From NCBI GenBank assembly GCA_049303795.1, contig JBAQNM010000004.1, positions 75,690 through 139,689 on the forward strand: a DNA stretch of 64,000 nucleotides. Reading direction: 5' to 3'. Numbering within the stretch: the first letter of the stretch is position 1; each line of letters starts with the position of its first letter. Under the pieces are notes generated by a model that worked only from the letters and a program-made list of their open reading frames with translations, was not told the DNA's origin and did not search any database. This document shows positions 4,125 through 41,324 of the stretch, piece by piece. Source of the DNA: Candidatus Moraniibacteriota bacterium. Its GTDB lineage: Bacteria; Patescibacteriota; Minisyncoccia; Moranbacterales; UBA2206. The position numbers and the translations under genes were made by a program.

Positions 4125-6371
4125 TTACCTCTCAATCCATTTACCAGAATTACATTCACAGTTCACACTTGAACAAGTCATTCCTGGACAACTACCAGCG
4201 CCTGGCTTAACTCCACAGTCTCCAGCATTACATGTTAGTGGTAAACAGACTCCAACCATCGTACCTACCGCTGGACGTGTCGCTCCGCAATTACTAGTTT
4301 GAGTAAAGGCTGTGCCCGTACAAATTGTGTTATTAGCAGGAGTCCAAGTTCTATCATTACATACATAATATTGACATTTTCTTCCGTCAGTACAACTAGA
4401 GGAATCCTCTCCAACATTTCTCCAGGATAGACTAGCTGTAGGCACATTTACATTATCATCCGTACACATAGTGCCAGCTGGAGGATTTGGCGTTCTGCAA
4501 TAACCAACTCCGGAAGGAAAATAGTATTGACATTTTCTAGCACTTGTACAATTAGAAGCCCTGCTAACCTGTATCCAATCTACGTTCGACGTTAAGCCTG
4601 CATCGTCACCTGAGCACATTACTGCTCCAGGCGGAAACAATCCAGTACAAGAATACAGCGGAGTTGGAGTAGGGGTTATGGTTGGAGTTGGCGTTGGTGT
4701 TATCGTTGGAGTCGGAGTTGGTGTAGAACAAACCTTTGTTCCAGCGCTATAAGTTCCACAATTATTAAGACAGCTGCTACCAATACAAGTATTAGCGGCA
4801 CAAACGCCATCAACAACACAAGTGCAACTACCACCACAACTAGTGCAACTAATGCCATTCCAAGTATATCCTTCGCTACAAACACGATTAGTTCCGGTAC
4901 AGGTGCCTGTTACAGTTGGATCAGCACTATTCCAAACTGAGAAATTACATGTTCTTGTTTTTGTTGAACCGGAAGTATTAAAAAATTGATGTTCAGCATC
5001 AAAAGTTCCAGTAAAAGCCCCTCCTGGATAGTTTTGAGTGTATCCAGCACTATAATTACAAACATAGCCACTACATGAAAATTCTCTACAAACAGCACTC
5101 CACATATTAGAATTTGCACCTGAAACAGCAGAATGTACTGTTTCGCCTGAATTAACTGTGTTACTATAGCCCACACAAGAAACACTAGCAGGAGGAGTAG
5201 CAGGACCAGCCCCTGAATTGACAGTCTGAGTCCCAGTGCATGTTCCAGTCACGCTTGGATTAGCACTATCCCAAACGGTATAAGTACAAGTTCTTGTTTT
5301 TGCAGAACCAGAAGTGTTATAGAATTGACTTTCCGAACCAAATGAGCCTGAAAAAGATCCTCCGGAATAATTCTGAACATACCCGGCACTATAATTACAA
5401 ACATAACTTCCACATGAAAACTCTCTGCAAACAGCGCTCCACATATTAGCATTTGCACCTGAAACAGCTGAATATACAGTGCCACCAGAGTTAACTGTAT
5501 GAGAATAACCTACACAAGAAACACCAGCTGGAGGAGTAGGTGTAACGGGACCAACTCCTGAATTGACAGTCTGCGTTCCAGTACATGTTCCAGTCAAACC
5601 AGGATTAGCGCTATCCCAAACGGTATAAGTACAAGTTCTTGTTTTTGCAGAACCAGAAGTATTATAAAATTGACTTTCTGAACCGAATGTTCCTGAAAAA
5701 GATCCTCCGGAATAATTTTGAACATACCCGGCACTATAATTACAAACATAACTTCCACATGAAAACTCTCTGCAAACAGCGCTCCACATATTAGCATTTG
5801 CACCTGAAACAGCTGAATATACAGTGCCACCAGAGCTAACTGTATGAGAATAGCCCACACAAGAAGGAATGTTGACACATACCCCACTCTGACATTGCTT
5901 ATTTGTTCCACAAGATGTTCCATTTGCAGCATTAGCCGTATATGCACAAGTATTTGATGAGCAAGTTGCGACCTTACAAACTGGAGGAGTTGCGGTGCAA
6001 TTTGAGGCCGTACAGCATCCTGTTCCAGATGCTCCTAGGAAAGTTGGTGGAGTTGCCGTAGTGGCACTTCCAAAAATTGCAGTACCATATGTTGGTGCCT
6101 GGTTGCTACGCCAACAACCGGCATCTATCCAACAAGATACGGGACTTGAAGCAGAACAAGGAATGGTTAACGACCCTCCTGTATAATATCCGGCACCAGT
6201 AGACCTGTTTGTTACTGAACAATATTTGCAACCACCGCCTGAATCACTACATGTAGTACCAGCAGAACAAGTATCTGAAGCATTAGCCATTGGGATGCCT
6301 GAGATTATTCCTGATAAAAAAAGAGCTAGGGAAAAGATAATAGAAAAGATAATTTTTTTATTCATACTCAT
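4125..6371 (-). CDS. Secreted cysteine-rich repeat protein (748 aa), cassette 1 large protein; C-terminus ...CNSGKWIER
   Basis: Sec-type signal peptide MSMNKKIIFSIIFSLALFLSGIISGIPMANA. Composition is about 10% Cys and very rich in S/T/G. Three ~115 aa tandem repeats (SCVGYSHTV...TRTCTYTVWDSANP...TGTCTGTQTVNSG). PT-rich linker TPTPTPTITPTPTPT. The internal minus ORFs at 4265-5947 are out-of-frame shadows. Confidence 0.8.
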   Translation of the reverse strand: MSMNKKIIFSIIFSLALFLSGIISGIPMANASDTCSAGTTCSDSGGGCKYCSVTNRSTGAGYYTGGSLTIPCSASSPVSCWIDAGCWRSNQAPTYGTAIFGSATTATPPTFLGASGTGCCTASNCTATPPVCKVATCSSNTCAYTANAANGTSCGTNKQCQSGVCVNIPSCVGYSHTVSSGGTVYSAVSGANANMWSAVCREFSCGSYVCNYSAGYVQNYSGGSFSGTFGSESQFYNTSGSAKTRTCTYTVWDSANPGLTGTCTGTQTVNSGVGPVTPTPPAGVSCVGYSHTVNSGGTVYSAVSGANANMWSAVCREFSCGSYVCNYSAGYVQNYSGGSFSGSFGSESQFYNTSGSAKTRTCTYTVWDSANPSVTGTCTGTQTVNSGAGPATPPASVSCVGYSNTVNSGETVHSAVSGANSNMWSAVCREFSCSGYVCNYSAGYTQNYPGGAFTGTFDAEHQFFNTSGSTKTRTCNFSVWNSADPTVTGTCTGTNRVCSEGYTWNGISCTSCGGSCTCVVDGVCAANTCIGSSCLNNCGTYSAGTKVCSTPTPTPTITPTPTPTITPTPTPLYSCTGLFPPGAVMCSGDDAGLTSNVDWIQVSRASNCTSARKCQYYFPSGVGYCRTPNPPAGTMCTDDNVNVPTASLSWRNVGEDSSSCTDGRKCQYYVCNDRTWTPANNTICTGTAFTQTSNCGATRPAVGTMVGVCLPLTCNAGDCGVKPGAGSCPGMTCSSVNCECNSGKWIER
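4857..5864. repeat. Intragenic tandem repeat, ~345 bp x 3, copies 2 and 3 near-identical at DNA level
   Basis: Repeated nucleotide blocks, e.g. ccagcactataattacaaacata...ctctgcaaacagcgctccacatattagcatttgcacctgaaacagc at ~5380-5480 and ~5725-5830. They encode the three SCVGYS...TVNSG protein repeats. Confidence 0.75.
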
Positions 6372-6372
6372 A

Positions 6373-6816
6373 TTATTTTTTATTAGCTTCGTTAATATTT
6401 ATATTTACTATCTCTTTATTTTCTTCATAATATTCAATAATTATTTCCTGACCCATTTTTAAGTCGGAAAGCTCAGCTTTTTCTCTGTTTTCACGAAGCC
6501 CTCTAGTCACAGGCGTCACTGGATCAATAAGTTTTATATCAAAAGACTCCACGCTTTTTTCTTTTTCTTCAATGCTCATATCACTTTCACTATTTTGCAA
6601 GCTTATAAAATCTATTGTGTTTTCATTCATTTTTACCAAATAGCCTGTTTTGGATCCAATAATCTTTGCCTCTTCGGAAGCTTCTTGAGTTGAACCAGTA
6701 TTTGATTTTCCTGTTTTTATTTTATTTTTATTCAAAAATGAAAAAAGAAAAAATACCATCACAAGGATAGCAATAATCCCAATTAAAAAACCCGCTACTT
6801 TTTTGTTTTTATCCAT
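6373..6816 (-). CDS. Small membrane-anchored protein (147 aa), cassette 1 partner
   Basis: N-terminal Lys-rich stretch plus one TM helix (VAGFLIGIIAILVMVFFLFSFL). C-terminal domain carries PVTPVTRGL...LSDLKMGQEIIIEY, a motif shared with the 15586-16032 protein. The stop abuts the start of the 4125-6371 gene. Confidence 0.7.
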   Translation of the reverse strand: MDKNKKVAGFLIGIIAILVMVFFLFSFLNKNKIKTGKSNTGSTQEASEEAKIIGSKTGYLVKMNENTIDFISLQNSESDMSIEEKEKSVESFDIKLIDPVTPVTRGLRENREKAELSDLKMGQEIIIEYYEENKEIVNININEANKK

Positions 6817-13496: not shown

Positions 13497-14010
13497 TTAT
13501 CTTTCTTCCCAATTTCCAGGACTACAAACATTCGTTCTACAACTCGAACTACACGTTTCTGGACAACCACCATTATTTACCCCATTGTCACAATCCTCAA
13601 ATAAACCCTTTATTCCGTCACCACAAACATCACAGTTATTAAACGTGCAACCTGCGCTACAAGTTTTTGGACAAACTCCATTGTTAGCACCTTTATCACA
13701 TAATTCACCTAATTCTAAAATTCCATTACCACACACGGAACAAGTGTTGCTCGTGCAGCTTGTGCTACAAATCTTTGGACAAACTCCATTGTTAGCTCCG
13801 TTATCACAAGTTTCAACTCCTTCCAAAACTCCATTACCACAAGTGGCTCCACCACAAGTGTTACTTGTACAAGTTGCGCTACAAGTCTTTGGACAAACTC
13901 CATTGTTGGCACCATCGTCACAAATTTCAGAGCCCTCTATAATCCCATTGCCACAAGTAACGCTACTGCAATCTTCTGTTCCAGCGGTATATCCACATCC
14001 ATTCCAACAA
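13497..14010. repeat. Four tandem ~37 aa Cys-rich repeats (CGNG...CDxGxNNGxCPxxCS)
   Basis: Visible in the translation of the 3' end of the 13497-15605 gene. The Pro-rich + strand ORF 13441-14037 is the antisense frame of these repeats. Confidence 0.7.
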
Positions 14011-15605
14011 TCAAAACCAAGGCAAGCATTGCAATAAAAAGGAGTGCAACCACCACAACCATCACAACTTCTAACAGTAACAGCCCCACTGCAAGAACCG
14101 ATTACTGATGGATTAAGAGTATTCCAAACTTTAAAATTACAACTTCTCGTTTGATCATCTCCGGAATTATTATAATATAATGCTGTAGCGTCAAGACTCT
14201 GTTCTATTGGATATGTTAGACTGTTATAAAAATAAGCTGGTGAATCATATGTACATACTCGATCAGTACATTCAAACTTATTGCAGGTATATTTTATTCT
14301 GTTAGCATTCCAAGCAGACACCGAGGCATCAGCAATTTCTCCTGAGTTAACAATACTATCATTACTATCATAAGCACAAGTCGGGCCATCACCTATTTGA
14401 GGAGGCTCGTCTCCGCTTCTGACTGAAACTCCACCGCCACATGTGGCTGTTTTATTATTGAAAGTATTTTTAACAGTAATTGTACAACTTCTTGTTTTTA
14501 AACTGCCTGAGGTATTATAGTAATAAAATGTAGCGCTATTATCTGCAAGAGGTAATGTATATACGGGAGAATTGTAATCATAGTTATCTTCATAATAACA
14601 CGTACCTGATGTGCAATTGAAATCAGAGCAAGTCCAACTAACTTCTTGGGCATTACTGGTGGTCAAATGTGTTTGAGCTGTCTTTCCTGAATCAATAGTT
14701 CCATCAGTTGAATAAACACAACTTGGACCATCAGGTGGAGGCGGTGTCACTACTGCGCCACTATGAACATTCACATTTCCATTGCAAGTTCTCTTCACGC
14801 TACTATTGGCACTACTCCAAACTGTGAATTTACAATTTCTTGATAAATCTTTGCCTGAATCATTATTAAATATAATCGAATTAGTTATAGTTCCATCAGA
14901 TGGTATATCAGTATTACCAGAATATGAATAGCTTTCATCATCATTGCAGGTTCCACCTGAGCACCTAAAGTTTGAGCAAACCCAACTAACCTTATCAGCG
15001 TGTGTGGCTGAAAACATTACGGTAATTGCAGCTCCCGAATTAGTGTCATATGAATAATCATTACAACTTGGCTCTGGGAAAGAATCTGCACACTTACCTT
15101 CTGCACAAACTTTTCCCGAACCACAAGCATGAATATCCTCACTTAATTTTTTATCTGCTGAGCAATAATACTCTTTTACTGTATTAGTATCAACACAATT
15201 ATCCCAAGCAGAGTCTTTATACGGATTAAATTCTACATATCCCTGTGTTGAATAATCCTTGCTATCAGAATCTACACAAATCATATCACATCTACCTTCA
15301 CTTGCTTTACAATAAGCATCCTCATAAAAACTGGTACAACTGTTAACGCTCTGATCAAGAGCACCTCCGGTACAAAAATATTCTGTCAAGTTGTTTCCAA
15401 CACAATTATCCCAAGCATCGTCAGCCTTAGTAGGCGTTCCATTGAAATCAGTATTACCTTGAATGAATGGCTTATTTCCACCATCAGAGTCAGTGCAAAC
15501 TGCTTTTGCTGATCCAACAAGAAAAAAAACAGATACGATCAGGACAAGGAAACTAGCAATTAATTTTTTATTCATATTCATAAATTTATTTTTTATCAAG
15601 AACAA
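13497..15605 (-). CDS. Secreted cysteine-rich repeat protein (702 aa), cassette 2 large protein; C-terminus ...CSPGNWEER
   Basis: Signal peptide (MNKKLIASFLVLIVSVFFLVGSAKA). Repeats of the C.FTVW.sanp..gtC.G type are shared with the 748 aa protein. The C-terminal region has four CGNG..E.GE.CD.GANNGVCPKTCS repeats resembling the Myxococcus cysteine-rich repeat. Confidence 0.8.
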   Translation of the reverse strand: MFLIKNKFMNMNKKLIASFLVLIVSVFFLVGSAKAVCTDSDGGNKPFIQGNTDFNGTPTKADDAWDNCVGNNLTEYFCTGGALDQSVNSCTSFYEDAYCKASEGRCDMICVDSDSKDYSTQGYVEFNPYKDSAWDNCVDTNTVKEYYCSADKKLSEDIHACGSGKVCAEGKCADSFPEPSCNDYSYDTNSGAAITVMFSATHADKVSWVCSNFRCSGGTCNDDESYSYSGNTDIPSDGTITNSIIFNNDSGKDLSRNCKFTVWSSANSSVKRTCNGNVNVHSGAVVTPPPPDGPSCVYSTDGTIDSGKTAQTHLTTSNAQEVSWTCSDFNCTSGTCYYEDNYDYNSPVYTLPLADNSATFYYYNTSGSLKTRSCTITVKNTFNNKTATCGGGVSVRSGDEPPQIGDGPTCAYDSNDSIVNSGEIADASVSAWNANRIKYTCNKFECTDRVCTYDSPAYFYNSLTYPIEQSLDATALYYNNSGDDQTRSCNFKVWNTLNPSVIGSCSGAVTVRSCDGCGGCTPFYCNACLGFDCWNGCGYTAGTEDCSSVTCGNGIIEGSEICDDGANNGVCPKTCSATCTSNTCGGATCGNGVLEGVETCDNGANNGVCPKICSTSCTSNTCSVCGNGILELGELCDKGANNGVCPKTCSAGCTFNNCDVCGDGIKGLFEDCDNGVNNGGCPETCSSSCRTNVCSPGNWEER

Positions 15606-16032
15606 TGACTATACTTAACGCGTTTTTGGTTTGTTTATCATATTCAATCATAATTGTTTGCCCAATCTTCAAATCAGAAAGTCTGCCATCTTTTTTATCA
15701 GCATCCAAGCCAACAGTAACAGGGGTTACTGGTGAAACAAGACTTATATTATAAGATTCTATTTCTCTTGATATTTTCATCTCATCTCCAATCTTAATCT
15801 CTTTCGGTGGCCCAAGAACATCTATGGATTGCTCATGCATTTTTCTTAACTCACCCGTAATTATTTCTGTTCCAACGTCTACTGTTTTCTCTTGAATAAT
15901 TTTTTGATTTTCTTCTGTATATTTTTTTGAAACCAAAAAAGAAGCAAAATAAATAATTGTAATAAATATAATTATTCCAATCAAGATAACTAAGCTTTTT
16001 TTGTTTCTTTCTGTTTTTTTCTGTTTTTTCAT
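15586..16032 (-). CDS. Small membrane-anchored protein (148 aa), cassette 2 partner
   Basis: Lys-rich N-terminus plus TM helix. Motif LVSPVTPVTVGL...LSDLKIGQTIMIEY is shared with the 6373-6816 protein. Its 3' end overlaps the start of the large gene. Confidence 0.7.
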   Translation of the reverse strand: MKKQKKTERNKKSLVILIGIIIFITIIYFASFLVSKKYTEENQKIIQEKTVDVGTEIITGELRKMHEQSIDVLGPPKEIKIGDEMKISREIESYNISLVSPVTPVTVGLDADKKDGRLSDLKIGQTIMIEYDKQTKNALSIVIVLDKK

Positions 16033-16240: not shown

Positions 16241-17473
16241 TCATCTCTCCTCCCAATTTCCAGAATTGCAAGAACCACAATGTGTCGTCTGAGCAGCACA
16301 ATTAGCAATTTCGGCAGGCGAGCACACACCTGCTCCGCAAGTTTTAATACATCCTTTTGGTTTGTCTCCACAACCACACACTGCATCTACACAAGTTGCT
16401 GGCATGCATGGAGGTGGTGTTACGGTTGGTGTTGGAGTTGCAGATGGAGAAACAATTATTGTTCGACTATCACAATTTGACCAAACATTATTACTGTCTT
16501 TAACTTTGAAACCAACCACCCAGGTTCCTGGAGAAAAAATAATACTACTAGTGTTAGGAACGCTAGTGCCAATATATAAAGCAGTTCCGGTACAACTCCC
16601 ATTTTTATACCATCTATAGCCTGTAATAGTATCTCCGGAATCAACATCATTTCCTGTTCCGGTAAAATTAAAAGAAAGGGTGCTAATTGTTTTTGGATTG
16701 TCCAAGGAATCTGGAATTGTTATCAACGCTGTAGGTGCAGTATTGCTGCTACTTACACTAGTCACCTCACTCATCATATTCGAACAAGCAGCTCCATATG
16801 ATGCTGGGTCATTCAAATTAGTATTAGTCGAATCAATGCAAAACCACCCAACTGGGCATTTCGTCTCGCTAACAGGAGAAAGTAAACCACTAGGCTCAAT
16901 TCCACTTTGCCATACAGACCACCAAATTACACCATCAGAAGAAATATGCTTTTCACAAGAATCATAAATTGTTTCACGAGCACCATCAGAATTGACTCCG
17001 GTAGCTTTTCCACCTTGATTTGGATCATTACCGAAATCATTATCAGTTCCTGTCACACATAATCCTGAGCTATTCATATATTGATAAGCTTCAGGGCAAC
17101 AATCACTAAAAGTCCCTTCCTCACCTAAGCAATCTGAAACACTGAGACATTTATTCTCTCCATTACAAACTTTTCCAGATGGACAATCAGAGTCAACACA
17201 ACATTCAACGGTTGCTTGATATCCCTTATTGTTATACCAACTTCCAGCACAAGAAGAGCTCCATGCCACAGAATCACAAGTTGCTCCTGGAGCTGTGCAC
17301 CAGGCATCGCATTTTTGAATTTTTTTATTAACACAGGCAGACTCACTACTAACATATGAATCATCACCATCCCCTTGTATCAACGGATTTGCCAATACAT
17401 AATCAATACTAATGAAAAAAACAAAGGACAAAAGCGAAAAAATAACACCTGCAATTTTCATTTTTATTTTCAT
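16241..17473 (-). CDS. Secreted cysteine-rich protein (410 aa), cassette 3 large protein; C-terminus ...CNSGNWEER
   Basis: Signal peptide MKIKMKIAGVIFSLLSFVFFISIDYVLA. Cys-rich N-terminal half, an Ig-like middle region and a PT linker. The C-terminal Cys cluster ends in SGNWEER. Confidence 0.75.
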   Translation of the reverse strand: MKIKMKIAGVIFSLLSFVFFISIDYVLANPLIQGDGDDSYVSSESACVNKKIQKCDAWCTAPGATCDSVAWSSSCAGSWYNNKGYQATVECCVDSDCPSGKVCNGENKCLSVSDCLGEEGTFSDCCPEAYQYMNSSGLCVTGTDNDFGNDPNQGGKATGVNSDGARETIYDSCEKHISSDGVIWWSVWQSGIEPSGLLSPVSETKCPVGWFCIDSTNTNLNDPASYGAACSNMMSEVTSVSSSNTAPTALITIPDSLDNPKTISTLSFNFTGTGNDVDSGDTITGYRWYKNGSCTGTALYIGTSVPNTSSIIFSPGTWVVGFKVKDSNNVWSNCDSRTIIVSPSATPTPTVTPPPCMPATCVDAVCGCGDKPKGCIKTCGAGVCSPAEIANCAAQTTHCGSCNSGNWEER

Positions 17474-17573: not shown

Positions 17574-18005
17574 TTATTCTTGTCCTACAATCACTTCCAA
17601 AACTTCATTATTTTGTTTATTGTAAGTTATTTTAACATCTTTATCCATAGAAAGCTGAAATAATCCGATTTCTATTTTTTGAACATCTTCATTATTTTCT
17701 ACTTCCTGAAAAAAATTAGCTCCTTCGGAGGGTACAATCAAATCTAATTCCTGACCATCAACGCTAACCACCTTAAGTATAGAGATGTCAATTGAAACGA
17801 TTTTGGCTAAAATATTTTCCATTTCAATGCTGGACTGATTATTCTCTTCTTGATTTGATTGAAATTGAGTTTGAATAGAATTATTTTTTGAATCACCAAA
17901 TAAATGTTGCCTTTTACTAATAACCAATACCGCTAAGATAAAGGCCAAAACACCCACTATTATGATTAAACTTGCTCGAGTATTTTTTTTATTTTTTTGT
18001 TTCAT
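17574..18005 (-). CDS. Small membrane-anchored protein (143 aa), cassette 3 partner
   Basis: Same architecture as 6373-6816 and 15586-16032 (Lys-rich N-terminus, one TM, ~100 aa C-terminal domain) and the same position upstream of a Cys-rich gene. Sequence is more diverged. Confidence 0.55.
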   Translation of the reverse strand: MKQKNKKNTRASLIIIVGVLAFILAVLVISKRQHLFGDSKNNSIQTQFQSNQEENNQSSIEMENILAKIVSIDISILKVVSVDGQELDLIVPSEGANFFQEVENNEDVQKIEIGLFQLSMDKDVKITYNKQNNEVLEVIVGQE

Positions 18006-20943: not shown

Positions 20944-21334
20944 AGATTTTATTAGATTGCTCCTTTTTATTTTTTATAGAGCAATTTCATTATTTAATTT
21001 ATAGATTTAGCCAAGTTACTTTGGCAAATTATTGATTATGATATATTTCTGCTTGATATAACCAAGCAAAACTAAAAAGTTTAAATTACGATAAAAAAGA
21101 ATAGTGCCTAGAAGTGATTAGCACTAAATGACCGAAAGGGGTAAATAAGTTCAAGTGTCTATCTTCTCGTAAGAATTATATCATACTATTATACATGAAT
21201 CCAGAATAATGTCAACTCGAGTTAGAAAACAGGCTTTTTTGTCAATAATTACACAAAATAAAAAAAGGTGCTTGAGAATTCTGCTGGTTCGCAGTTTCTC
21301 AAACACCCTTATTGTTCGTGCGCTACAGATCTTT

Positions 21335-22084
21335 TTAGAATGCGCAGCTAATCCCGGCGTGTGTGACGTACAAATCTTCTCGGTAGTCAGTATCATCCAT
21401 GAAAGTCGGAAAATACATGTCGATTCCGACATTAGCCGATAATTTTTCGGAGAGCTGGTAGGTCATCCGCGGGGCAACCTTAATGATTAAGGCTTTTTCT
21501 GCACCGTAACCGCCCATATCAACATCAAGCTTTGTTTTCATATTAACTTTAAGCTTATCGGTGATATTGCAAGCCAGATCGACCATGGGGATAAGATAAA
21601 GTCCGGTCGTTTGACTGTTATGAACATCGTCGACAGGAAAATTATACTCAACCCTGAATCCTGGTATCGCCGTAATGATTCCAAGTGAAAATGCCTTGGA
21701 AACCTCGGCATTGACCTGGAGCACATCGTTATTGGTTGATGTTAACGTTCCTGGCGACATAAGATAATAGGCGCCACCGATTGTCCAGAAGTTTTTTGAG
21801 TACCATACGCTCAGATCCACTTCGGTCGCCGCGTTATCACCAACGTTGTTAAAGTTTGTCGGTAACGACGCCCAGACCGACCCGCCAAGGCCATTCTCAA
21901 AATTTTTGCCGGCTTCCATCTGAATCACAGGTTTGTCGTAAACCTCAAACCCTGATCCCAGCACATACGATCCAAGACCGTCAACAACCAGATATTCCCC
22001 TGATGCATACGCAACAGAATAACCCCCAGCCATTAAAGCAACCGCCGCTACCGTCATCAATACTGCAAGAATCAGTTTTTTCAT
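21335..22084 (-). CDS. Putative outer-membrane-type beta-barrel protein (porin/OMP-like), GC-anomalous gene
   Basis: Signal peptide MKKLILAVLMTVAAVALMAGGYSVAYA. Alternating hydrophobic beta-strand pattern and C-terminal ...GISCAF (terminal Phe). Strong SD (AGAGAGGGAAATCA) before the ATG at 22084. Local GC is about 47% against ~33% in the flanks. Confidence 0.5.
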   Translation of the reverse strand: MKKLILAVLMTVAAVALMAGGYSVAYASGEYLVVDGLGSYVLGSGFEVYDKPVIQMEAGKNFENGLGGSVWASLPTNFNNVGDNAATEVDLSVWYSKNFWTIGGAYYLMSPGTLTSTNNDVLQVNAEVSKAFSLGIITAIPGFRVEYNFPVDDVHNSQTTGLYLIPMVDLACNITDKLKVNMKTKLDVDMGGYGAEKALIIKVAPRMTYQLSEKLSANVGIDMYFPTFMDDTDYREDLYVTHAGISCAF

Positions 22085-22284
22085 TGATTTCCCTCTCTTT
22101 CGTTTTTTGCTCATCTCTGAGCGATTATTTTCATTTTTTTAAGCTACTATTATCCACTTTTGGATTTTAAATAGTAGCACTTTATTAGTTAAAAGTCAAC
22201 TGTAACTTTTTTAAATTCAATTTAAAGTTGTAAAATTTCAACAAGTTCGCTAGACTAATACATATCACTAATAAGAAACTATTT

Positions 22285-26886: not shown

Positions 26887-27310
26887 GGGGATGCCTGGTT
26901 TCGACAGGTTGTACGTTTAAAATATGCAAGCCGAGGTTAATCATAACTCGTAAAACATGATTAAAAGTTATAAGTGCAAACTTACTAACAAAAGCAAGAA
27001 CTGCATTTGCTAACGCATTTACAGTAAACTTCGCTACCGCTCTTGCCTAATACCGATGTTCTCGGTTTAGCTTGAGTCATCGAACTTATCTACGCCCGAT
27101 AAATAAGTTTGGTGTCAAATTATCGGGATAGCTTCCAGCATCTTTCTTGAGTGCTAGAAGTGAAACAATTTCAGGGATAGAATAAAAAGGTTTGGTTTGT
27201 CTTTTACTTTTTATTCAACCCCGCCTTGGCGGTGAATTAAGACAAAATAAGCTTGTAGTATATTTTTGATGAATAATTTTGGACTCGAGTTCAACTCTCG
27301 CCATCTCCAC
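26887..27310 (+). ncRNA. ssrA: tmRNA (ssrA)
   Basis: 5' end GGGGATGCCTGGTTTCGACAGG and 3' tRNA-like end GGACTCGAGTTCAACTCTCGCCATCTCCA. An internal reading frame ends ...FATALA-stop. It lies immediately downstream of smpB. Confidence 0.7.
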
Positions 27311-27321
27311 GAAAATTAATC

Positions 27322-35794: not shown

Positions 35795-37402
35795 CTAATG
35801 ACCACTGTCCTCTTTTTTATTGTTGATGATCTGATCAACCCAGTGTTTTGGATTTTCTGGATTAACCCAGTATACCTTGTCGTTATCAGCGTTCATAATC
35901 GCAATCTCCGGCTTTCCTCCAGTGCCGAATCGCTCCGGATTATCTTTGTTCAGAGTTACAACCGTTGAAAGCCAAAAGAAAGTAGCTTTTCCATCGATAA
36001 TCTTGATGTATGGCCTATTTTCAACGGCCCGGACTATTTGCCAAGTGTACGCCTTACGGCTGTCTTGAATCTTCTGCGCGACAGCCCCGACCCCGGTATA
36101 ATTCTCCCCATGCATATAATGTTTATACACATAAATAGGACCGATGCCATCTCCCGGATAAAGCATGCTGGCATTTAACCCCTTGGCCGGTTCATAATAC
36201 GGCTCGAAGGAAAAATAACCATACAGCTTTGACTTTTCCGGTTCGTTGGGAAAATTGAAGTAAGTCGTAAATGGCTGTTCATTGGAATCCTCTGATAGAT
36301 CTGAAACCACCACATCACCCATATGATAGAAAGGTGCCGGTCCCCAGAAGCCATTGTCAAACTTGAAACTATCAGCATCGAACCTTTCAACTATTGCTGG
36401 TACGATGCTTTGCCCCTTCAGAAAAGGATGTTTGAAAATGTCTTCCGGCGGAATCCATTTTCCGATACCAAAAACCCAGAGTTTCAGTTTTTGCAAAAAA
36501 CTCAATTGGCTATTATCTGGGATAATTAAAACTCCGCCCTTTTCCGGCCAGGGAAAAATTATTCCATTCCAATGTATAAGCTTGACTACTTCAACCCACC
36601 TCCCTTCGTCATCTTTTGTTAAGAACATTTCAGCCGGCTGATAATTTAAAAAACGCCATAAGCCGAATGTTTTAATCGTGTTGGTAATCACATTTTTTCC
36701 GAGTATCATATGCTGTCCAGTCTCAAAAGCAACCTTAACTTTCGCTTTTCCTTCAAAGCTTGGATAGGCTTCTTCACCGGAAACATTAAACACGGCATAG
36801 GACCTGCTAATGAGCTGGTTAATACCTGGGGGAGGCTCAATGAGCATCGTCCAGTTGTAATCATCCTTACCCACTCGCACAAAAAATGGATCACTGATTT
36901 GAAAACTTTCGTTTGTCTTCGTCTCAGCTTGAGTGAGCATTGATTGGCGTGGCTGGACTCTTTCATGACCAGTCAGCGGCATCTCCTTAAGTTCAACAAT
37001 ATCCAAAGTCTTGTACCGAAAATACAGTGACAAGTATTCATGGACATCGAATCCCTTATAAGCAGAATAGGCATAAAGGCCAGCAATTAAAACCAGCACT
37101 ACCGAAAAACCCAGCCGGGTAAACTTACGGCGAAAAACCAGTCTGAACATCAGGTAGAGCACCATACACAGGAGGCCGATAGTCAGCAATATCCAGAGGT
37201 GATTTCTCGCCCAGATGAGATATGGTTGCCACAGACCCCTAAGACCAAAGATGAACATCAGACTAATTACCACTGAGACCAGAAACGATCTCAAATGGTT
37301 TTTTAATTGGTTTTTGATTCCGCGGTTGATGTTGTGCCATAAATAATATATTTGGCCGTGTTGCTCATTTACCGCGGAAATCTTTTGTTTCGTTTTTTCC
37401 AT
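35795..37402 (-). CDS. Island protein 1: large membrane protein (4 TM + ~400 aa extracytoplasmic aromatic-rich domain)
   Basis: Start assigned to the ATG at 37402, which has a perfect SD GAGGAGG (revcomp of 37408-37416); the longer ORF-track version overlaps the upstream gene. GC is about 45%. Confidence 0.55.
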   Translation of the reverse strand: MEKTKQKISAVNEQHGQIYYLWHNINRGIKNQLKNHLRSFLVSVVISLMFIFGLRGLWQPYLIWARNHLWILLTIGLLCMVLYLMFRLVFRRKFTRLGFSVVLVLIAGLYAYSAYKGFDVHEYLSLYFRYKTLDIVELKEMPLTGHERVQPRQSMLTQAETKTNESFQISDPFFVRVGKDDYNWTMLIEPPPGINQLISRSYAVFNVSGEEAYPSFEGKAKVKVAFETGQHMILGKNVITNTIKTFGLWRFLNYQPAEMFLTKDDEGRWVEVVKLIHWNGIIFPWPEKGGVLIIPDNSQLSFLQKLKLWVFGIGKWIPPEDIFKHPFLKGQSIVPAIVERFDADSFKFDNGFWGPAPFYHMGDVVVSDLSEDSNEQPFTTYFNFPNEPEKSKLYGYFSFEPYYEPAKGLNASMLYPGDGIGPIYVYKHYMHGENYTGVGAVAQKIQDSRKAYTWQIVRAVENRPYIKIIDGKATFFWLSTVVTLNKDNPERFGTGGKPEIAIMNADNDKVYWVNPENPKHWVDQIINNKKEDSGH

Positions 37403-37412
37403 AATTGCCTCC

Positions 37413-38018
37413 TCAGTGCTTTGCTGTATATTTACGAATGAGTTCGTGAGGATCAACGGGTTTTTCTTCGACCACTTCAGGTCTCGCTTCAGCCGTTTCT
37501 GCCACAGACGTTTCAGGCTTTTCCGCTTTTTCTTCTGCTGAATGATTTTTTGCAGGTTTCCACTTTTTGAAAAGCGAGCGGAAACCATCAATCAATTCCT
37601 TGATCCAGTCTATCATGCTGAACTTTACTCGGCCCTCAGAAACATCATCAGCCCATTCGAAAAGATCAGATCTTTTCGTCCAGCGCTGATATGCCCACGG
37701 TGCCAGAGAAAATCCAAGCATAATCATCAGGATTCCGACCGGCAGTCCGAGAAGTTCAAACAGCAGATTGACTGGTGCGTATTTCAAGGAAATTACAGCC
37801 TGCATAATATAAATGATGAAGGCTGCGAGAATCTTCTTGTTGATCGGCCGTTTGTAGATGAAGCCGTCGGCCTTGTCCTCAGAAATTTGATTTTCCTCGG
37901 AATGGCACAGGTTGTGCCACCAGCGGCAAAGTTTTGAACCATACTTCCAGTCTGCAATAAAGGTCAGAATGCCAACCTTAAAAAGTACAATCGCCATAAA
38001 AATTCCATATGCTGTCAT
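37413..38018 (-). CDS. Island protein 2: small membrane protein (201 aa) with acidic C-terminal tail
   Basis: Three or four TM helices. C-terminal EEKAEKPETSVAETAEARPEVVEEKP. Separated from the downstream gene by a 10 bp gap. Confidence 0.5.
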   Translation of the reverse strand: MTAYGIFMAIVLFKVGILTFIADWKYGSKLCRWWHNLCHSEENQISEDKADGFIYKRPINKKILAAFIIYIMQAVISLKYAPVNLLFELLGLPVGILMIMLGFSLAPWAYQRWTKRSDLFEWADDVSEGRVKFSMIDWIKELIDGFRSLFKKWKPAKNHSAEEKAEKPETSVAETAEARPEVVEEKPVDPHELIRKYTAKH

Positions 38019-38051
38019 GTTCTGTCTCCCTGTGTGATATGTTTACATTGT

Positions 38052-39338
38052 TTAATCGTTTTTGACTTGTGGTTGCGGTTCATAAGCTTCCTTAATTACG
38101 TTGACCGCCCAGTCTTTCTTGCTTTCCAACCAGTTTGGGTAATCTTGGAAAAATCGCTTTTTGTTGTAAGCATAAAGCTGAACAACATCCAGCGGATTCA
38201 GCTCCGAAAGAAGCTGCCAAATAATCGCTTGCACTGTTGGTTTTAATTTTGCTTTTGGATGAATCAGCAATCGGCGTAGTTCCGGTGGCAAGTCTTTAAT
38301 AGCCCTTTTAGGCTCCTTGTCAAACTGGATCATAAACCGTTCTATCTGAAAAAATTCCGGCGGCAAGCCGTCTTTGAGACCGGCTGCCAGACTTTTTTTC
38401 TGATTTGGATTGAGTGATCCGAAGAATATCGTCGGACACTTTCGAAGTTGCGCCTCAATCAAAAGACATTCCCATATGCGCTCAAGAACCTCCGGACTTT
38501 TATGATAAAAACTCTCACTAACATCCAGTAATCCTTTTTCCTCCATGACCGATAAAAGATTTTCATCTGCCAGGGAATACGCTCCGGGAACACTACCCTG
38601 CAATTCTCTGAATTGAGCATCATTCTCGAGGATCAGCAGTCCATCTTGACTGCACTTATCATCCCGAAAAACATATGCTCCGCCAAAAGCCGCCGTCCAG
38701 AAACTGCAGATTCCGTCAACCGGAATGCTTGGTATAATCACTGATCTGCTCCTGAGATCGCCGAATGACTTGGCACTTTCGATTATTTTTCTGCGCAAGT
38801 TTTCGTCGAACCAGGAATCATCTTTTCGCATAAACTTGTTAACCAGAGTACGCTGATCCTGGGCGCCTTTAATGAGCCCACTTGATGCTGAAGTCCGAAT
38901 AATAACGGAATCAACAAAAAGCAGATCACCCGGATTAAGATAATGCGACAGGTTTTGGTCAATATCCAGAATCACTGCCGTCTCTTCTGTAATGTCCGCC
39001 ACTTGCCGGCTAAACCGTTGGAATACTTCTTCCATAAGCGACCGGCTAAATGAATAATACGGGTAATAGACAGTTTTTCCGTTTTGTTTTGGTGTTAAAA
39101 TAATATGAAATTGGTTCGCTCCACCGTGCGCCAGATAGAACATCTCGTTCTTTTCCTTGGCAATTTCAGGACTCCAACCGGAGCCGTCAATGCTAAACTC
39201 TGTAAGCATGGTTGGTGACAAACCAATTTCCCTAAGACACTCATTATAGCGATTTATGAGCGTCCCTGAATGAATCTGTATAAGATGCCGACCATACAAG
39301 CCAGCATCGATCAATTTCTGTAGTGCCTCCATGGGCAA
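38052..39338 (-). CDS. Island protein 3: hypothetical soluble protein (428 aa)
   Basis: Long ORF with GC-rich codon usage. Shares short motifs with 41254-42432 (e.g. DIDQNL / GIDQNL). Confidence 0.5.
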   Translation of the reverse strand: MPMEALQKLIDAGLYGRHLIQIHSGTLINRYNECLREIGLSPTMLTEFSIDGSGWSPEIAKEKNEMFYLAHGGANQFHIILTPKQNGKTVYYPYYSFSRSLMEEVFQRFSRQVADITEETAVILDIDQNLSHYLNPGDLLFVDSVIIRTSASSGLIKGAQDQRTLVNKFMRKDDSWFDENLRRKIIESAKSFGDLRSRSVIIPSIPVDGICSFWTAAFGGAYVFRDDKCSQDGLLILENDAQFRELQGSVPGAYSLADENLLSVMEEKGLLDVSESFYHKSPEVLERIWECLLIEAQLRKCPTIFFGSLNPNQKKSLAAGLKDGLPPEFFQIERFMIQFDKEPKRAIKDLPPELRRLLIHPKAKLKPTVQAIIWQLLSELNPLDVVQLYAYNKKRFFQDYPNWLESKKDWAVNVIKEAYEPQPQVKND

Positions 39339-39344
39339 CCTCCA

Positions 39345-41324
39345 TTAGCCATTTTTTTGGTTAAGAAAACGTTTCTTGGCCTCTTCCTGCCGATTAATTT
39401 CATCCACAATCGCTTGAATTCTACGCTCTTCATCAGCCGAAAGTATCCTTGTCATAGCGTCCAAGTATCGGAAAGATTCCTCGAGCCTGAGCTGGGAGAA
39501 CGAAAGTCCCTTCATATTACCCTTCATCATTTCAATCAGGATATTTTTCTTTGTTGCATAATCCTGACGGAAAAACTTTTCCGGATGTTCCCACCAGTCT
39601 TTCTCCAGGTCAAAATCCATAATCCTGGTACTGACTGCTTCTTGGATATTTCGCACATCCCGAGAAGAGAATAATGGAAATACCTTTTTGACTTCAAGAT
39701 GTAGTATCGCAAAGAAGCGATGCTCTGTCGGATCCGCTTCCCGAAGCACTTTTTCATAAATTTCGTTTATCCGCTGATCGGTAGGTTTTTCATATTTACC
39801 ACAAACCGATAAGAGGTTTGGTCCGAGTGCTTGGGCAGTCTTATACTCATACCCTTCCGGATCTTTCATATTAATAAACTTCGGATCCATCTTGGCGTAT
39901 TTTACCCACCAGAGGTAATCCTGATCCAGAAAGTCTTCCAAAGTTTTGGCACCATCGATTATCGCCCGAACTTTAATTCGGGAAAGGACGGCTTTGTCAA
40001 GTTGTTCCGGTATATTGGTGTATAGCTCAATCACTGAGTTGCCGTGATTGATAGCCGTAGCACCTTCTGTGTTGGTCAAAAATGCGCCGATTACTTCCCG
40101 CACTCCAGCAGATACGCCTGGTCTTGTTCTGTCCTCAAAATTGTTTTCGGCATCATCGGCCGGTGCGTAAATAATCCTATTCGGATCACGCATCGGATGC
40201 ATCCAATCCAACATCCTTTCTTTCGACCCTCCCTGAAAAGTTGAAACAACATTTTCAGGCATCGGCCAGAAAAGAAAAGGATAGCCTAATTGTTCGCAAC
40301 GGTCTTTGAGCATAGTCGCAATCGCTGCGATCAACATGCTTTTTCCTGTTCCAGGGATTCCATGCCCCAGCCGAACCGTTGAGAATCCCCTCAGTTCCTG
40401 CATAGGATTTTTCTTGGCAGTAAAATCATAACATAATAATCTTTCCACCAATCGATGAGCGTGGTGCTTAGCATCATGATTTCCCACGATTTCGGTAAGC
40501 TCCATTCGATTAAATTCTACTGTCGCACTACTCGAAATAACCTGAGAATCAAAACCATTAATATTAAATTCAGTTCCTTCCAGTTTATAATGGTTATTCT
40601 CAAAAATTTCCTTCCGATTAAGAGAGCCCAAGCGCATCTTAATGTCCTCAATGACTGCCTGAAAATAAAGTAGCGTCATTTTGACAAAAGCCACCTCCGG
40701 TTTAGTTTTGATTGTTTCCAGAAGATCAGTTGCATAGGCCGTGTAATAGAAAACCATACACGTCCCGGCTATTTGCGGAAGGGTAAAATCAGTTTCCGGT
40801 ATTCCATCAATCTGGTGGTTTACCGCCGAAACTTCTTCCGTACGGTATTTGGACAATTTCCAAACTACGTAATAGGCCGTGGCAAACATATAGACCGCCG
40901 AGGCTGTTTCCTTTATTTCATTAAATTCGGTTTTTTGCTTATCTGAAAGGATCTTTCTCTTATTCAGGGCTATGAGATTTTCCATGCCACTGTGACGATA
41001 ATATTCCCAGAACAGATGCATGCCGATCCGCAAACCCTGGCGGACGGTTGTCAGCACGTGAAGTACTGCTTCGTCCATCAGGAATGGATCGTTGTTGAAC
41101 TTTGGCGCGAGCTTCATCAGGGACAACTCTTTTTCGATCCCAGCCTCGGCTGCTTCACTCCACTGCTTGGCGCCAGGAACGTTCATAGTTAATCTTGCTT
41201 TTTTTGGCTTCCACAGCACTTTTGCAAGAAGGGCGGTAGCGTCCGTGGTGAATCTATTCAAATCTTGTTCTTTTATCGGCAGACAAGCTGCAATGGTTTT
41301 TTCCTGCATAGATATTCTCCTCAT
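39345..41324 (-). CDS. Island protein 4: AAA+ family ATPase (659 aa)
   Basis: Walker A LGHGIPGTGKSMLIAAIA, preceded by IVGNHDAKHHAHRL, with the following region arranged as in AAA proteins. The 5' end overlaps the 3' end of the upstream gene by ~70 nt. Confidence 0.55.
   Translation of the reverse strand: MRRISMQEKTIAACLPIKEQDLNRFTTDATALLAKVLWKPKKARLTMNVPGAKQWSEAAEAGIEKELSLMKLAPKFNNDPFLMDEAVLHVLTTVRQGLRIGMHLFWEYYRHSGMENLIALNKRKILSDKQKTEFNEIKETASAVYMFATAYYVVWKLSKYRTEEVSAVNHQIDGIPETDFTLPQIAGTCMVFYYTAYATDLLETIKTKPEVAFVKMTLLYFQAVIEDIKMRLGSLNRKEIFENNHYKLEGTEFNINGFDSQVISSSATVEFNRMELTEIVGNHDAKHHAHRLVERLLCYDFTAKKNPMQELRGFSTVRLGHGIPGTGKSMLIAAIATMLKDRCEQLGYPFLFWPMPENVVSTFQGGSKERMLDWMHPMRDPNRIIYAPADDAENNFEDRTRPGVSAGVREVIGAFLTNTEGATAINHGNSVIELYTNIPEQLDKAVLSRIKVRAIIDGAKTLEDFLDQDYLWWVKYAKMDPKFINMKDPEGYEYKTAQALGPNLLSVCGKYEKPTDQRINEIYEKVLREADPTEHRFFAILHLEVKKVFPLFSSRDVRNIQEAVSTRIMDFDLEKDWWEHPEKFFRQDYATKKNILIEMMKGNMKGLSFSQLRLEESFRYLDAMTRILSADEERRIQAIVDEINRQEEAKKRFLNQKNG

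What the first reader, a model, noticed from the sequence alone, without database searches (positions are those of the whole stretch)
21180..22140. GC-anomalous islet encoding an outer-membrane-type beta-barrel with C-terminal Phe
About 950 bp of ~47% GC is embedded in ~33% GC DNA. It encodes a 249 aa protein with a classic signal peptide, amphipathic beta-strand periodicity and a terminal ...SCAF. These are hallmarks of Gram-negative OMPs. The composition suggests horizontal acquisition. An OMP-like barrel is unexpected if this is a CPR bacterium, which is generally considered to lack a typical outer membrane.
Basis: partly seen in the sequence, partly recalled or inferred. Interest (0 to 1): 0.6.

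Follow-up and report, generated by a model that had tools for sequence, protein, structure and literature searches.

The report
Outer-membrane-type porin gene in CPR bacterium
A bacterium from a group thought to have no outer membrane carries a well-conserved gene for a classic outer-membrane pore protein, and relatives of it turn up across that group, so either these cells have an unrecognised outer layer or they put the pore somewhere else, perhaps into their host.

Summary
A 249-aa ORF lies on the minus strand at 21335-22084. Its GC is 45.4-45.7% against about 36% background. Its GC3 is 0.488 against 0.312 expected from its amino-acid composition (z=6.5).

It encodes a Sec signal peptide followed by a 12-stranded beta-barrel (AlphaFold pLDDT 90.6). 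All 50 listed structural neighbours are Gram-negative outer-membrane barrels; NanC fits best. It ends in a canonical BAM beta-signal (..xGISCAF; family consensus RxGISYAF).

It is not a misjoin. Three assemblies show the same context, a 76%-identical homolog is syntenic, and dN/dS is 0.14.

"Horizontal acquisition" is only partly supported. An exhaustive profile search found 246 representative relatives. Every one I could place taxonomically or by gene context is also CPR. In all 7 independent genomic contexts the barrel gene has higher GC3 than its neighbours, whatever the baseline GC. The GC excess therefore looks like a family trait rather than a recent import.

The family is a remote sister of the proteobacterial TorF/Gcw_chp putative porins (hhalign 99.7%). 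The window protein itself hits no Pfam or NCBIfam model.

Which membrane it sits in is unknown. I favour a membrane outside the producer's cytoplasmic membrane, possibly the host's outer membrane. I found no prior report of it.

The parts
21335..22084 (-). CDS of the 249-aa beta-barrel precursor (stop TAA at 21335-21337)
   Evidence: ORF list and translation. It is identical to NCBI protein P0001 of a Candidatus Moraniibacteriota MAG. dN/dS against the L005 ortholog is 0.14.
22004..22084 (-). Sec-type signal peptide, residues 1-27 (KK, hydrophobic core, AYA|S cleavage motif; no lipobox)
   Evidence: Read from the sequence. AlphaFold models it as an N-terminal helix at residues 2-18 followed by a low-confidence linker. 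All family members have an equivalent N-terminus.
21338..22000 (-). Mature 12-stranded beta-barrel (residues 29-249). Long loops L1-L6 carry the family's conserved acidic and aromatic residues. The C-terminal beta-signal is H-A-G-I-S-C-A-F.
   Evidence: AlphaFold2 with 81 sequences gives pLDDT 90.6 and pTM 0.81. Foldseek PDB: NanC 2wjq has target-normalised TM 0.68 and rmsd 4.8, and all 50 listed hits are OM barrels. Dyad hydrophobicity. Across the family the C-terminal residue is F in 132 of 161 members and G sits at -5 in 116 of 161.
22091..22097 (-). Shine-Dalgarno GAGAGGG, 6 nt upstream of the ATG at 22084
   Evidence: Read from the sequence. In L005 the upstream ATG at 22114 is out of frame.
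22171..22199 (-). Candidate promoter TTGACT-17-TACTAT with an extended TG
   Evidence: Consensus scan, 9 of 12 matches. The number of such sites in the region is no higher than in shuffles, so this is only a candidate.
21257..21310 (-). Intrinsic terminator: a 19-bp hairpin (GGGUGUUUGAGAA...UUCUCAAGCACC(U)) followed by U7
   Evidence: RNA fold -33.7 kcal/mol, z=-6.2 against shuffles. It is conserved in L005. It explains why the GC-rich stretch runs past the stop codon.

Best explanation
The islet is a self-contained gene cassette (candidate promoter, SD, CDS, hairpin terminator). It lies in the chromosome of a Candidatus Moraniibacteriota (CPR/Patescibacteria) bacterium.

Shown: it encodes a Sec-exported, 12-stranded, porin-like beta-barrel of the outer-membrane type. 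The protein ends in the canonical BAM beta-signal (polar-x-G-x-x-aromatic-x-Phe). It is under purifying selection.

Shown: it belongs to a family of about 250 representative sequences (230-280 aa). Every member that could be placed is CPR: Moraniibacteriota, Paceibacterota, Parcubacteria group, and contigs with CPR-type gene content. The family is a remote sister of the proteobacterial TorF/Gcw_chp putative porins.

Shown, with the cause inferred: the GC-rich codon usage recurs in every locus examined. I take it to be a standing property of the family rather than the scar of a recent import.

Inferred mechanism: after Sec export the unfolded barrel inserts into a lipid bilayer outside the producer's cytoplasmic membrane. 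There it forms a passive, probably cation- or solute-selective channel. The conserved acidic loop residues (E88, D90, D120, D189, D233, with R235) would shape its mouth.

Because CPR cells are reported to have no outer membrane, the most likely target is the outer membrane of the diderm host at the epibiont-host contact. An unrecognised outer layer of the CPR cell is the alternative. In several lineages expression is probably controlled by a divergently transcribed TrmB-family regulator. That is not so in this window, where YchF is the divergent neighbour.
For: Identity and fold.

Homology: the exhaustive profile search found 246 representatives, nearly all full-length and 230-280 aa. Of 81 aligned members, 41 weakly hit PF09694 Gcw_chp and 22 hit TIGR02001 'TorF family putative porin'. 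hhalign of A1 against a Gcw_chp-positive clade gives probability 99.7%, E=9e-26 over 214 columns.

Real gene in place: the YchF | barrel | RNase J context is identical in three assemblies (window, L002, L003). A 76%-identical homolog is syntenic (L005). dN/dS is 0.14.

CPR-wide distribution: organism names are Moraniibacteriota (two), Paceibacterota and Parcubacteria group. Contexts with CPR-type gene content:
- a 1.0-Mb contig with a sortase;
- an insertion between EF-G and EF-Tu;
- a position downstream of SecY-Adk-Map and a T4SS-type ATPase, in an operon with no L30 gene between S5 and L15;
- a contig with a class-I LysRS.

The adjacent TrmB regulators have only CPR-named homologs.

Family-wide GC3 excess. 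Seven of 7 independent contexts, sign test p about 0.008.

Beta-signal conservation.

TrmB pairing.

CPR lack an outer membrane: PMC6744442, PMC7137472, PMC10160955, PMC12857230.
Against: No experiment or localisation data exist. The target membrane is pure inference.

The full genomes were not scanned for BamA/Omp85, Lpt, Lol or Lpx genes, so 'no BAM of its own' rests on the literature about CPR in general.

Most of the 246 representatives carry no taxonomy, so some may be from diderms.

No precedent is known to me for a classical BAM-type barrel being delivered from one bacterium into another's outer membrane from outside. No delivery route is evident in this window.

The loops are as conserved as the strands, unlike typical surface-exposed porins. 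That could point to a more specific function, such as ligand binding or enzymatic activity.

The persistent GC3 excess is unexplained. EF-Tu and ribosomal-protein genes do not share it, so simple expression-linked codon bias does not account for it.
Confidence: 0.55

Rival explanations
1. Recent horizontal acquisition. The cassette was imported not long ago from a Gram-negative donor of about 45-50% GC, and its composition has not yet ameliorated. It may have little or no function in the monoderm recipient.
For: GC3 is 0.488 against 0.312 expected, z=6.5.

Two other islands in the window have the same codon skew.

Between the window and L005 the cassette, including its non-coding ends, is 69-83% identical, while the flanks are 87-98% identical. 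Its dS is 1.03 against 0.53-0.65 in the flanks.

Clade-A homologs sit at different loci in different Moraniibacteriota.

In L008 a nearby GC-rich gene encodes a PEP-CTERM-like tail, a motif I know as typical of diderms.
Against: The gene was already at this locus before the window and L005 lineages split, and GC3 is the same in both (0.488 and 0.482).

dN/dS of 0.14 shows it is maintained.

Every nameable homolog is CPR.

The GC3 excess scales with the host genome, from 0.46-0.51 in about 35% GC genomes to 0.75 in a 54% GC genome. A single donor pool would not produce that.

There is no tRNA, integrase or conserved flanking repeat. Nothing was found in phage, plasmid or viral collections.
Confidence: 0.15
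2. The barrel sits in the producer's own envelope. Some CPR lineages keep, or have re-evolved, an outer lipid layer or outer-membrane remnant, and they insert this porin themselves.
For: The family is conserved across several CPR groups and keeps an intact BAM-type beta-signal.

There are two paralogs in one Paceibacterota MAG.

The gene shows housekeeping-like contexts, for example between EF-G and EF-Tu.

One review notes that the cell walls of most CPR are undescribed (PMC8871954).
Against: Published microscopy and gene-content surveys report no outer membrane in CPR, no PilQ secretin, no TonB system and almost no OMPs (PMC6744442, PMC7137472). Reviews treat them as monoderms (PMC12857230, PMC10160955).

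The family is rare. A pattern scan of 185,579 GTDB species genomes with the clade-A alignment returned only 2 loci. That scan reaches close relatives only.
Confidence: 0.17
3. It is not a resident membrane porin. It is a secreted barrel with another role: a pore-forming toxin against the host, a lipid or hydrophobic-ligand scavenger, or a barrel enzyme in the manner of OmpT, PagP or OMPLA.
For: The loops are as conserved as the strands, and the most conserved motif (DMGGYGAEK) lies in a loop.

Invariant acidic residues cluster at one rim.

CPR cannot make their own lipids and must take them from hosts (PMC12857230).

In L013/L014 the gene follows a T4SS-type ATPase by 42 bp.
Against: All 50 listed structural neighbours are integral OM channels or transporters.

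The strand exterior is strongly hydrophobic, which is incompatible with a soluble monomer.

There is no match to any known barrel-enzyme family.
Confidence: 0.1
4. Assembly chimera: the segment is a misjoined piece of another organism's genome.
For: Only the compositional contrast.
Against: Three independent assemblies show the same junctions. A diverged relative is syntenic, and alignment is continuous across both boundaries. Homologs lie inside long CPR contigs of up to 1.0 Mb.
Confidence: 0.01

Closest known systems
TorF family putative porin / Gcw_chp (TIGR02001, PF09694; Pfam MBB clan of outer-membrane beta-barrels)
   Same: The length is the same (about 240-260 aa), with a signal peptide, full-length alignability and a C-terminal aromatic. 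A sister clade of the family passes or nearly passes the Pfam model: 6 of 8 members hit, best E=5.7e-9, and P0015 scores 32.5 bits against a cut-off of 24. That clade aligns to the window's clade with hhalign probability 99.7%, E=9e-26.
   Different: The window protein and its five closest relatives hit no Pfam or NCBIfam model, even at E<=10. As far as I recall the Pfam description, Gcw_chp is described from Proteobacteria, whereas all placeable members here are CPR. TorF itself has no demonstrated function that I know of.
KdgM/NanC-type 12-stranded monomeric porins (PDB 2wjq, 2wjr, 8xua)
   Same: They give the best structural superposition: TM 0.57 normalised to the query, 0.68 normalised to the target, rmsd 4.8 A. 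They share the strand number and a small monomeric barrel.
   Different: Sequence identity is 11-14% and there is no family-model hit. The loops carry different conserved motifs. KdgM/NanC proteins sit in the enterobacterial outer membrane and import acidic oligosaccharides.
Other 12-14-stranded OM barrels: FapF, Tsx, PcoB, OmpG
   Same: They share the fold class and size, with TM 0.5-0.6.
   Different: No sequence relationship was detected. FapF has a plug helix and forms trimers. Tsx and PcoB have specific substrates.
Phage- or mobile-element-borne OMPs (lambda Lom; PF24653 cyanophage OMP-like barrel)
   Same: These are barrels encoded by an entity that does not itself own the outer membrane in which they function. 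Two family members hit PF24653 weakly, at E=0.002.
   Different: Those proteins are made inside the diderm host and reach BAM from the periplasm. A CPR epibiont would have to deliver its barrel from outside. No phage or plasmid homolog was found.

Membership tests
Outer-membrane beta-barrel superfamily (MBB-type OMP) | N-terminal Sec signal peptide, with no other hydrophobic helix | tested here: met
   The sequence begins MKKLILAVLMTVAAVALMAGGYSVAYA|SG. The longest purely hydrophobic run in the mature protein is 4 residues.
Outer-membrane beta-barrel superfamily (MBB-type OMP) | An even number of antiparallel amphipathic strands closing a barrel, with short turns on one side and long loops on the other | tested here: met
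   The AlphaFold2 model (pLDDT 90.6) has 12 strands, 5 turns of 2-4 residues and 6 loops of 8-15 residues. The faces alternate, with mean KD +2.0 and -0.87.
Outer-membrane beta-barrel superfamily (MBB-type OMP) | Structural similarity to solved OM barrels | tested here: met
   Foldseek against PDB gives 173 hits at E<=1e-3. The top 50 are all OM barrels.
Outer-membrane beta-barrel superfamily (MBB-type OMP) | C-terminal beta-signal (polar-x-G-x-x-aromatic/hydrophobic-x-aromatic, with terminal Phe) | tested here: met
   The window protein ends H-A-G-I-S-C-A-F and the clade consensus is R-x-G-I-S-Y-A-F. Across the family the terminal residue is F in 132 of 161 members and G sits at -5 in 116 of 161. 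The motif definition is from my own knowledge of the BAM literature.
Outer-membrane beta-barrel superfamily (MBB-type OMP) | Residence in an outer membrane and assembly by BAM/Omp85 | not testable with these tools
   This needs localisation data and a scan of the complete genomes for Omp85. The literature says CPR lack an outer membrane (PMC6744442, PMC7137472).
TorF / Gcw_chp (PF09694, TIGR02001) | Score at or above the curated cut-off of the family model | tested here: not met
   The window protein has no Pfam or NCBIfam hit at E<=10. Among relatives, 41 of 81 hit Gcw_chp weakly, and a few pass the cut-off (P0015 at 32.5 bits against 24).
TorF / Gcw_chp (PF09694, TIGR02001) | Demonstrable homology to family members over the full length | tested here: met
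   The A1 profile finds P0015 at E=1.6e-18. hhalign of A1 against the Gcw_chp-positive clade A8 gives probability 99.7%, E=9e-26 over 214 columns.
TorF / Gcw_chp (PF09694, TIGR02001) | Occurrence in Proteobacteria, often as a paralogous family (Pfam description, as I recall it) | tested here: not met
   All named or context-placed members are CPR. One Paceibacterota MAG has two paralogs.
KdgM/NanC porin family | Sequence match to the family model | tested here: not met
   No such hit appeared in the Pfam scans of the window protein or of 81 relatives. The resemblance is structural only.
Recently acquired genomic islet | Atypical composition and codon usage | tested here: met
   GC3 z=6.5.
Recently acquired genomic islet | Absence from close relatives at the same locus | tested here: not met
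   It is present at the same locus in L005, whose flanking genes differ by dS 0.53-0.65. No relative with an empty site was available.
Recently acquired genomic islet | Mobility signatures: tRNA target, integrase or transposase, flanking direct repeats | tested here: not met
   There is no tRNA nearby; the only RNA gene is a tmRNA at 26887. No mobility gene is adjacent. A 12-nt repeat at 21184/22145 is at chance level and is not conserved in L005.

The most novel reading that the evidence does not exclude
CPR epibionts export classical, BAM-signal-bearing porins that are assembled into the outer membrane of their diderm host, using the host's own BAM machinery or inserting spontaneously at the contact zone. 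This opens a feeding channel between host periplasm and epibiont. The family would then be the first example of an outer-membrane barrel made by a cell that has no outer membrane, for use in another cell's membrane.
Probability: 0.2. Interest if true: 0.9.

Novelty: new variant of a known kind. Interest (0 to 1): 0.66.

Why it matters
CPR/Patescibacteria make up a large share of bacterial diversity. They are treated as monoderms that lost the outer membrane, its porins and its assembly machinery.

A conserved, selected family of outer-membrane-type barrels that keeps an intact BAM recognition signal in these genomes leaves two options. One is that some CPR have an outer lipid layer nobody has seen, which bears on how and when outer membranes were lost in Terrabacteria. 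The other is that the barrels work in someone else's membrane, which would give a concrete molecular handle on how obligate epibionts tap their hosts.

Either outcome can be tested with one small protein that should be easy to express.

The family-wide GC3 excess also shows that a compositional 'island' need not mean recent transfer.

Tried and rejected
- **Pfam, NCBIfam and PDB-sequence searches.** Searches of the window protein and of the family profile found nothing usable. There were no family hits and the best PDB-sequence match had E=0.36.
- **Donor hunt.** The k-mer-indexed protein search found only 6 close homologs. Scans of viral contigs, JGI metagenome contigs, phage genomes and plasmids found nothing. 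The scan of GTDB species genomes found 2 loci.
- **Broad alignment for locus scans.** The clade-B alignment returned one short contig.
- **Expression-linked codon bias as the cause of high GC3.** Rejected. EF-Tu, EF-G and ribosomal-protein genes in the same loci have ordinary GC3. The excess includes CpG-containing NCG codons.
- **Amino-acid composition as the cause.** Rejected.
- **TrmB as an obligatory partner.** Rejected. There is no TrmB in the window. TrmB paralogs are numerous in CPR, and two TrmB loci have no barrel.
- **Flanking direct repeat as an insertion scar.** At chance level and not conserved.
- **Known defence-system annotation for the second GC-rich island.** No PADLOC hit.
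- **Rfam.** Nothing beyond the tmRNA.
- **Polarised substitution analysis for amelioration.** Not attempted, because the available outgroups are saturated at synonymous sites.
- **Literature.** Nine full-text searches and follow-up reading found no report of OMP-type barrels in CPR.
Full report
**1. What is at the coordinates**

Three things support this:
- it is preceded by GAGAGGG at 22091-22097;
- NCBI annotates exactly this 249-aa product (P0001, 100% identical, 'Candidatus Moraniibacteriota bacterium');
- in the syntenic relative L005 the upstream ATG is out of frame.

The protein ends ...HAGISCAF, with stop TAA at 21335-21337.

Downstream of the stop there is a 19-bp hairpin plus U7 at 21257-21310 (RNA fold z=-6.2). 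It is conserved in L005. This terminator explains why GC-rich DNA continues beyond the CDS.

A candidate promoter (TTGACT-17-TACTAT) lies at 22171-22199.

**2. The compositional anomaly is real but smaller than stated**

| Region | GC |
|---|---|
| CDS | 45.4-45.7% |
| Peak 300-bp windows | 47.7-48.3% |
| Whole window | 37.0% |
| Background outside GC-rich islands | 35.9% (sd 2.9) |

The excess lies in synonymous positions. GC3 is 0.485-0.488, against 0.22-0.35 for the neighbouring genes. Given the protein's amino-acid composition and the window's background codon usage, the expected GC3 is 0.312 (sd 0.027), so z=6.5.

Two other stretches have the same skew: six ORFs at 35795-43978 and one at 62596-63759.

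**3. Not an assembly artefact, and a maintained gene**

The identical protein sits in the same YchF | gene | RNase J context in two further assemblies (L002, L003). A 76%-identical homolog sits in the same context in a diverged relative (L005).

Aligning the window to L005 gives 87-98% nucleotide identity in the flanks and 69-83% across 21207-22200. That range is almost exactly the cassette, including its non-coding ends.

Nei-Gojobori estimates:

| Gene | dS | dN/dS |
|---|---|---|
| Barrel | 1.03 | 0.14 (dN 0.143) |
| RNase J | 0.53 | 0.015 |
| TrpRS | 0.65 | 0.048 |
| YchF | 0.57 | 0.010 |

So the gene is under purifying selection but evolves much faster than its neighbours. It predates the split of the two lineages. 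GC3 is the same in both (0.488 and 0.482).

**4. What the protein is**

- **Family models.** The window protein hits nothing in Pfam or NCBIfam, even at E<=10.
- **Structure prediction.** AlphaFold2 with six homologs gave a barrel at pLDDT 74. With 81 homologs it gave pLDDT 90.6 and pTM 0.81.
- **Model layout.** There is a signal-peptide helix, then 12 antiparallel strands joined by five 2-4-residue turns and six 8-15-residue loops.
- **Structural neighbours.** Foldseek against PDB returned 173 hits at E<=1e-3. The top 50 are all Gram-negative outer-membrane barrels. The best superpositions are the 12-stranded porin NanC (target-normalised TM 0.68, rmsd 4.8 A), VhGalP, PcoB, FapF and Tsx.
- **Strand chemistry.** The strands alternate a hydrophobic face (mean KD +2.0) and a polar face (-0.87). 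The mature protein has no hydrophobic helix.
- **C-terminus.** The clade consensus is R-x-G-I-S-Y-A-F. This matches the BAM beta-signal as I know it from the literature: polar-x-G-x-x-aromatic-x-aromatic, with a terminal Phe. Across 161 family members the last residue is F in 132 and G sits at -5 in 116.

**5. The family, and the twist**

The k-mer-indexed search found only six close homologs, two of them named Moraniibacteriota. The exhaustive profile search over 1.84 billion representatives found 246 relatives at E<=1e-3, nearly all full-length and 230-280 aa.

*Relation to known families.*
- Of 81 aligned relatives, 41 weakly hit PF09694 Gcw_chp and 22 hit TIGR02001 'TorF family putative porin'.
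- A few touch other OM-barrel models: autotransporter beta-domain, OMP_b-brl, Phage_OMP and YfaZ.
- Profile-profile comparison ties the window's clade to a Gcw_chp-positive clade at probability 99.7%, E=9e-26.
- It ties the window's clade to a second clade at 99.8%, E=1e-29.

The protein therefore belongs to a remote sister family of TorF/Gcw_chp inside the OM-barrel superfamily. It is not a member of TorF/Gcw_chp by that family's own criterion.

*Where the relatives live.* I expected the distant relatives to be proteobacterial. Every one I could place is CPR instead.

By organism name:
- P0030 is from Candidatus Paceibacterota, with a paralog in the same MAG.
- P0028 is from a Parcubacteria group bacterium, KKQ52436.1. 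It belongs to the Gcw_chp-positive clade.

By gene context:
- a 1.0-Mb contig with a sortase (L008);
- an insertion between EF-G and EF-Tu (L011, L012);
- a position after SecY-Adk-Map and a T4SS-type ATPase, in a ribosomal operon with no L30 gene between S5 and L15 (L013, L014);
- a contig with a class-I LysRS (L009).

*TrmB pairing.*
- A TrmB-family regulator is transcribed divergently, immediately upstream of the barrel, in L001/L007, L008, L011/L012, L015 and two JGI contigs. It also lies on the same contigs as two more clade-B barrels.
- Every organism-named homolog of these regulators is CPR: Taylor-, Pace-, Buchanan-, Campbell-, Berkel-, Moran- and Parcubacteria.
- The pairing is not universal. 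TrmB paralogs are numerous in CPR, two TrmB loci carry no barrel, and the window has no TrmB.
- The taxonomy of most of the 246 representatives remains unknown.

**6. The GC excess is a family trait**

In all nine loci with DNA (seven independent contexts), the barrel gene has a higher GC3 than the mean of its neighbours, at baseline GC from 34% to 54%.

| Locus | Barrel GC3 | Neighbour GC3 (range or mean) |
|---|---|---|
| L001 | 0.46 | 0.27-0.47 (mean 0.35) |
| L011 | 0.47 | 0.26-0.39 for translation genes (locus mean 0.35) |
| L013 | 0.61 | 0.27-0.51 (mean 0.38) |
| L008 | 0.69 | 0.31-0.41 for the immediate neighbours (locus mean 0.47) |
| L009 | 0.75 | 0.52-0.67 (mean 0.59) |

The adjacent TrmB gene, EF-Tu, EF-G and the ribosomal-protein genes are not elevated.

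A single recent import from one donor pool does not predict an offset that tracks each recipient's own GC. It also does not predict equal GC3 in two lineages separated by dS of about 0.5-1. Two possibilities remain: the family is exchanged repeatedly among CPR of differing GC, or some selection keeps its synonymous sites GC-rich. I could not distinguish between them and leave this unexplained.

**7. How it most likely works**

*Shown:* the protein has a Sec signal, an OM-type 12-stranded barrel, a conserved beta-signal and selective maintenance. It belongs to a CPR gene pool.

*From the literature:* CPR have no outer membrane.
- They lack PilQ and TonB-ExbBD, consistent with the absence of an outer membrane (PMC6744442).
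- OMPs are nearly absent and electron microscopy shows no outer membrane (PMC7137472).
- 'Chloroflexi and CPR lost theirs' (PMC10160955).
- 'Patescibacteria are monoderms' (PMC12857230).

*Inferred:* the barrel needs a bilayer outside the cytoplasmic membrane. There are two candidates:
- the host's outer membrane at the attachment site, which I favour slightly because CPR are obligate epibionts with few transporters;
- an unrecognised outer layer of the CPR cell.

*Shape of the channel.* The invariant acidic and aromatic residues map to the long loops and strand ends on one rim: Y40, G45, Q55, W71, S73, E88, D90, Y106, D120, D189, G191, D233 and R235. The loops are as conserved as the strands, 0.68 against 0.68, and loop 5 (DMGGYGAEK) reaches 0.90. 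This suggests a defined constriction or binding site rather than hypervariable surface loops.

A toxin, scavenger or enzyme role is a lesser rival.

**8. Novelty**

Nine full-text searches and targeted reading found no description of OMP-type barrels in CPR. The fold and superfamily are well known. The lineage, the conserved beta-signal in presumed monoderms and the persistent codon skew are not. I rate it a new variant of a known kind, of moderate-to-high interest, with all functional statements still computational.

**9. Limits**

- No complete genome was scanned for BAM, Lpt or Lol genes.
- No coordinates of the model were available for lumen analysis.
- Most family members lack taxonomy.
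- The CPR assignment of L009 rests on gene content only.

Noticed in passing
window 35795-43978 (- strand): A second, larger GC-anomalous island. Six consecutive ORFs have GC 41-47% and GC3 0.41-0.48 (z=6-10 against expectation). One is DUF6638 (E=2e-43) and one is an AAA ATPase. The rest have no Pfam hit, and none hits PADLOC. It could be an uncharacterised defence or mobile module.
   Followed up: partly
window 62596-63759 (- strand): A 387-aa ORF with GC 45% and GC3 0.45 (z=6.6) and no Pfam or PADLOC hit. It is a third compositional outlier with the same skew as the barrel gene.
   Followed up: partly
window 20944-21215 (- strand): A perfect sigma-70 promoter (TTGACA-16-TATAAT, 12 of 12) at 21215-21188 is followed by an untranslated leader of about 245 nt before RNase J. 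The leader is 95-98% identical to L005, more conserved than the coding flanks. It folds better than shuffles (z=-3.6) and has no Rfam match. It may be an autoregulatory leader of RNase J.
   Followed up: partly
L013 7194-10768 and L014 6639-10213: In one CPR lineage the barrel gene starts 42 bp after a 921-aa T4SS-type ATPase (DUF8128/DUF87/TraG-like) on the same strand. The pair lies directly downstream of SecY-Adk-Map. T4SS is reported as essential for epibiotic growth in Patescibacteria (PMC12857230).
   Followed up: no
L008 13510-14235: A 241-aa protein ends in VPEPSLALLAPFGLLLRRRR, a PEP-CTERM-like sorting tail that I know as typical of diderms. Its GC3 is 0.70, in a genome region where GC3 is about 0.37, and it lies 2.7 kb from the barrel gene on a 1.0-Mb CPR-like contig.
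   Followed up: no
L001 8965-9705, L008 9112-9891, L011 9092-9937, L015 1-570: A TrmB-family HTH regulator is transcribed divergently from the barrel gene in at least six contexts. It belongs to a very large CPR-specific TrmB expansion: 430 hits at E<=1e-10, with up to three paralogs within 9 kb in Buchananbacteria and Berkelbacteria loci.
   Followed up: partly
L011 10904-11928: Two small hypothetical genes (169 and 172 aa, each with an N-terminal TM segment) follow the barrel gene and share its elevated GC3 (0.48). Together they form a three-gene GC-rich islet inserted with TrmB between EF-G and EF-Tu.
   Followed up: no
window 50840-51832, 51861-52853, 56025-57020: Three paralogous ORFs of about 330 aa share the N-terminus MSHEFP..STLERWLSLELKNQYE.KAKILNQLG. 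They are interleaved with very large ORFs of 1021 and 1497 aa. No annotation was attempted.
   Followed up: no
window 4125-6371, 13497-15605, 16241-17473: Three secreted proteins have very high second-position GC (0.51-0.65), meaning they are rich in Gly, Ala, Ser and Thr. Each is followed by a small single-pass membrane protein (6373-6816, 15586-16032, 17574-18005). The repeated two-gene surface module is of unknown function.
   Followed up: no
window 26887-27312 (+): A tmRNA gene (Rfam 154 bits) with tag peptide ANLLTKARTAFANAFTVNFATALA lies next to smpB. It is the only RNA gene detected in the 64 kb.
   Followed up: yes
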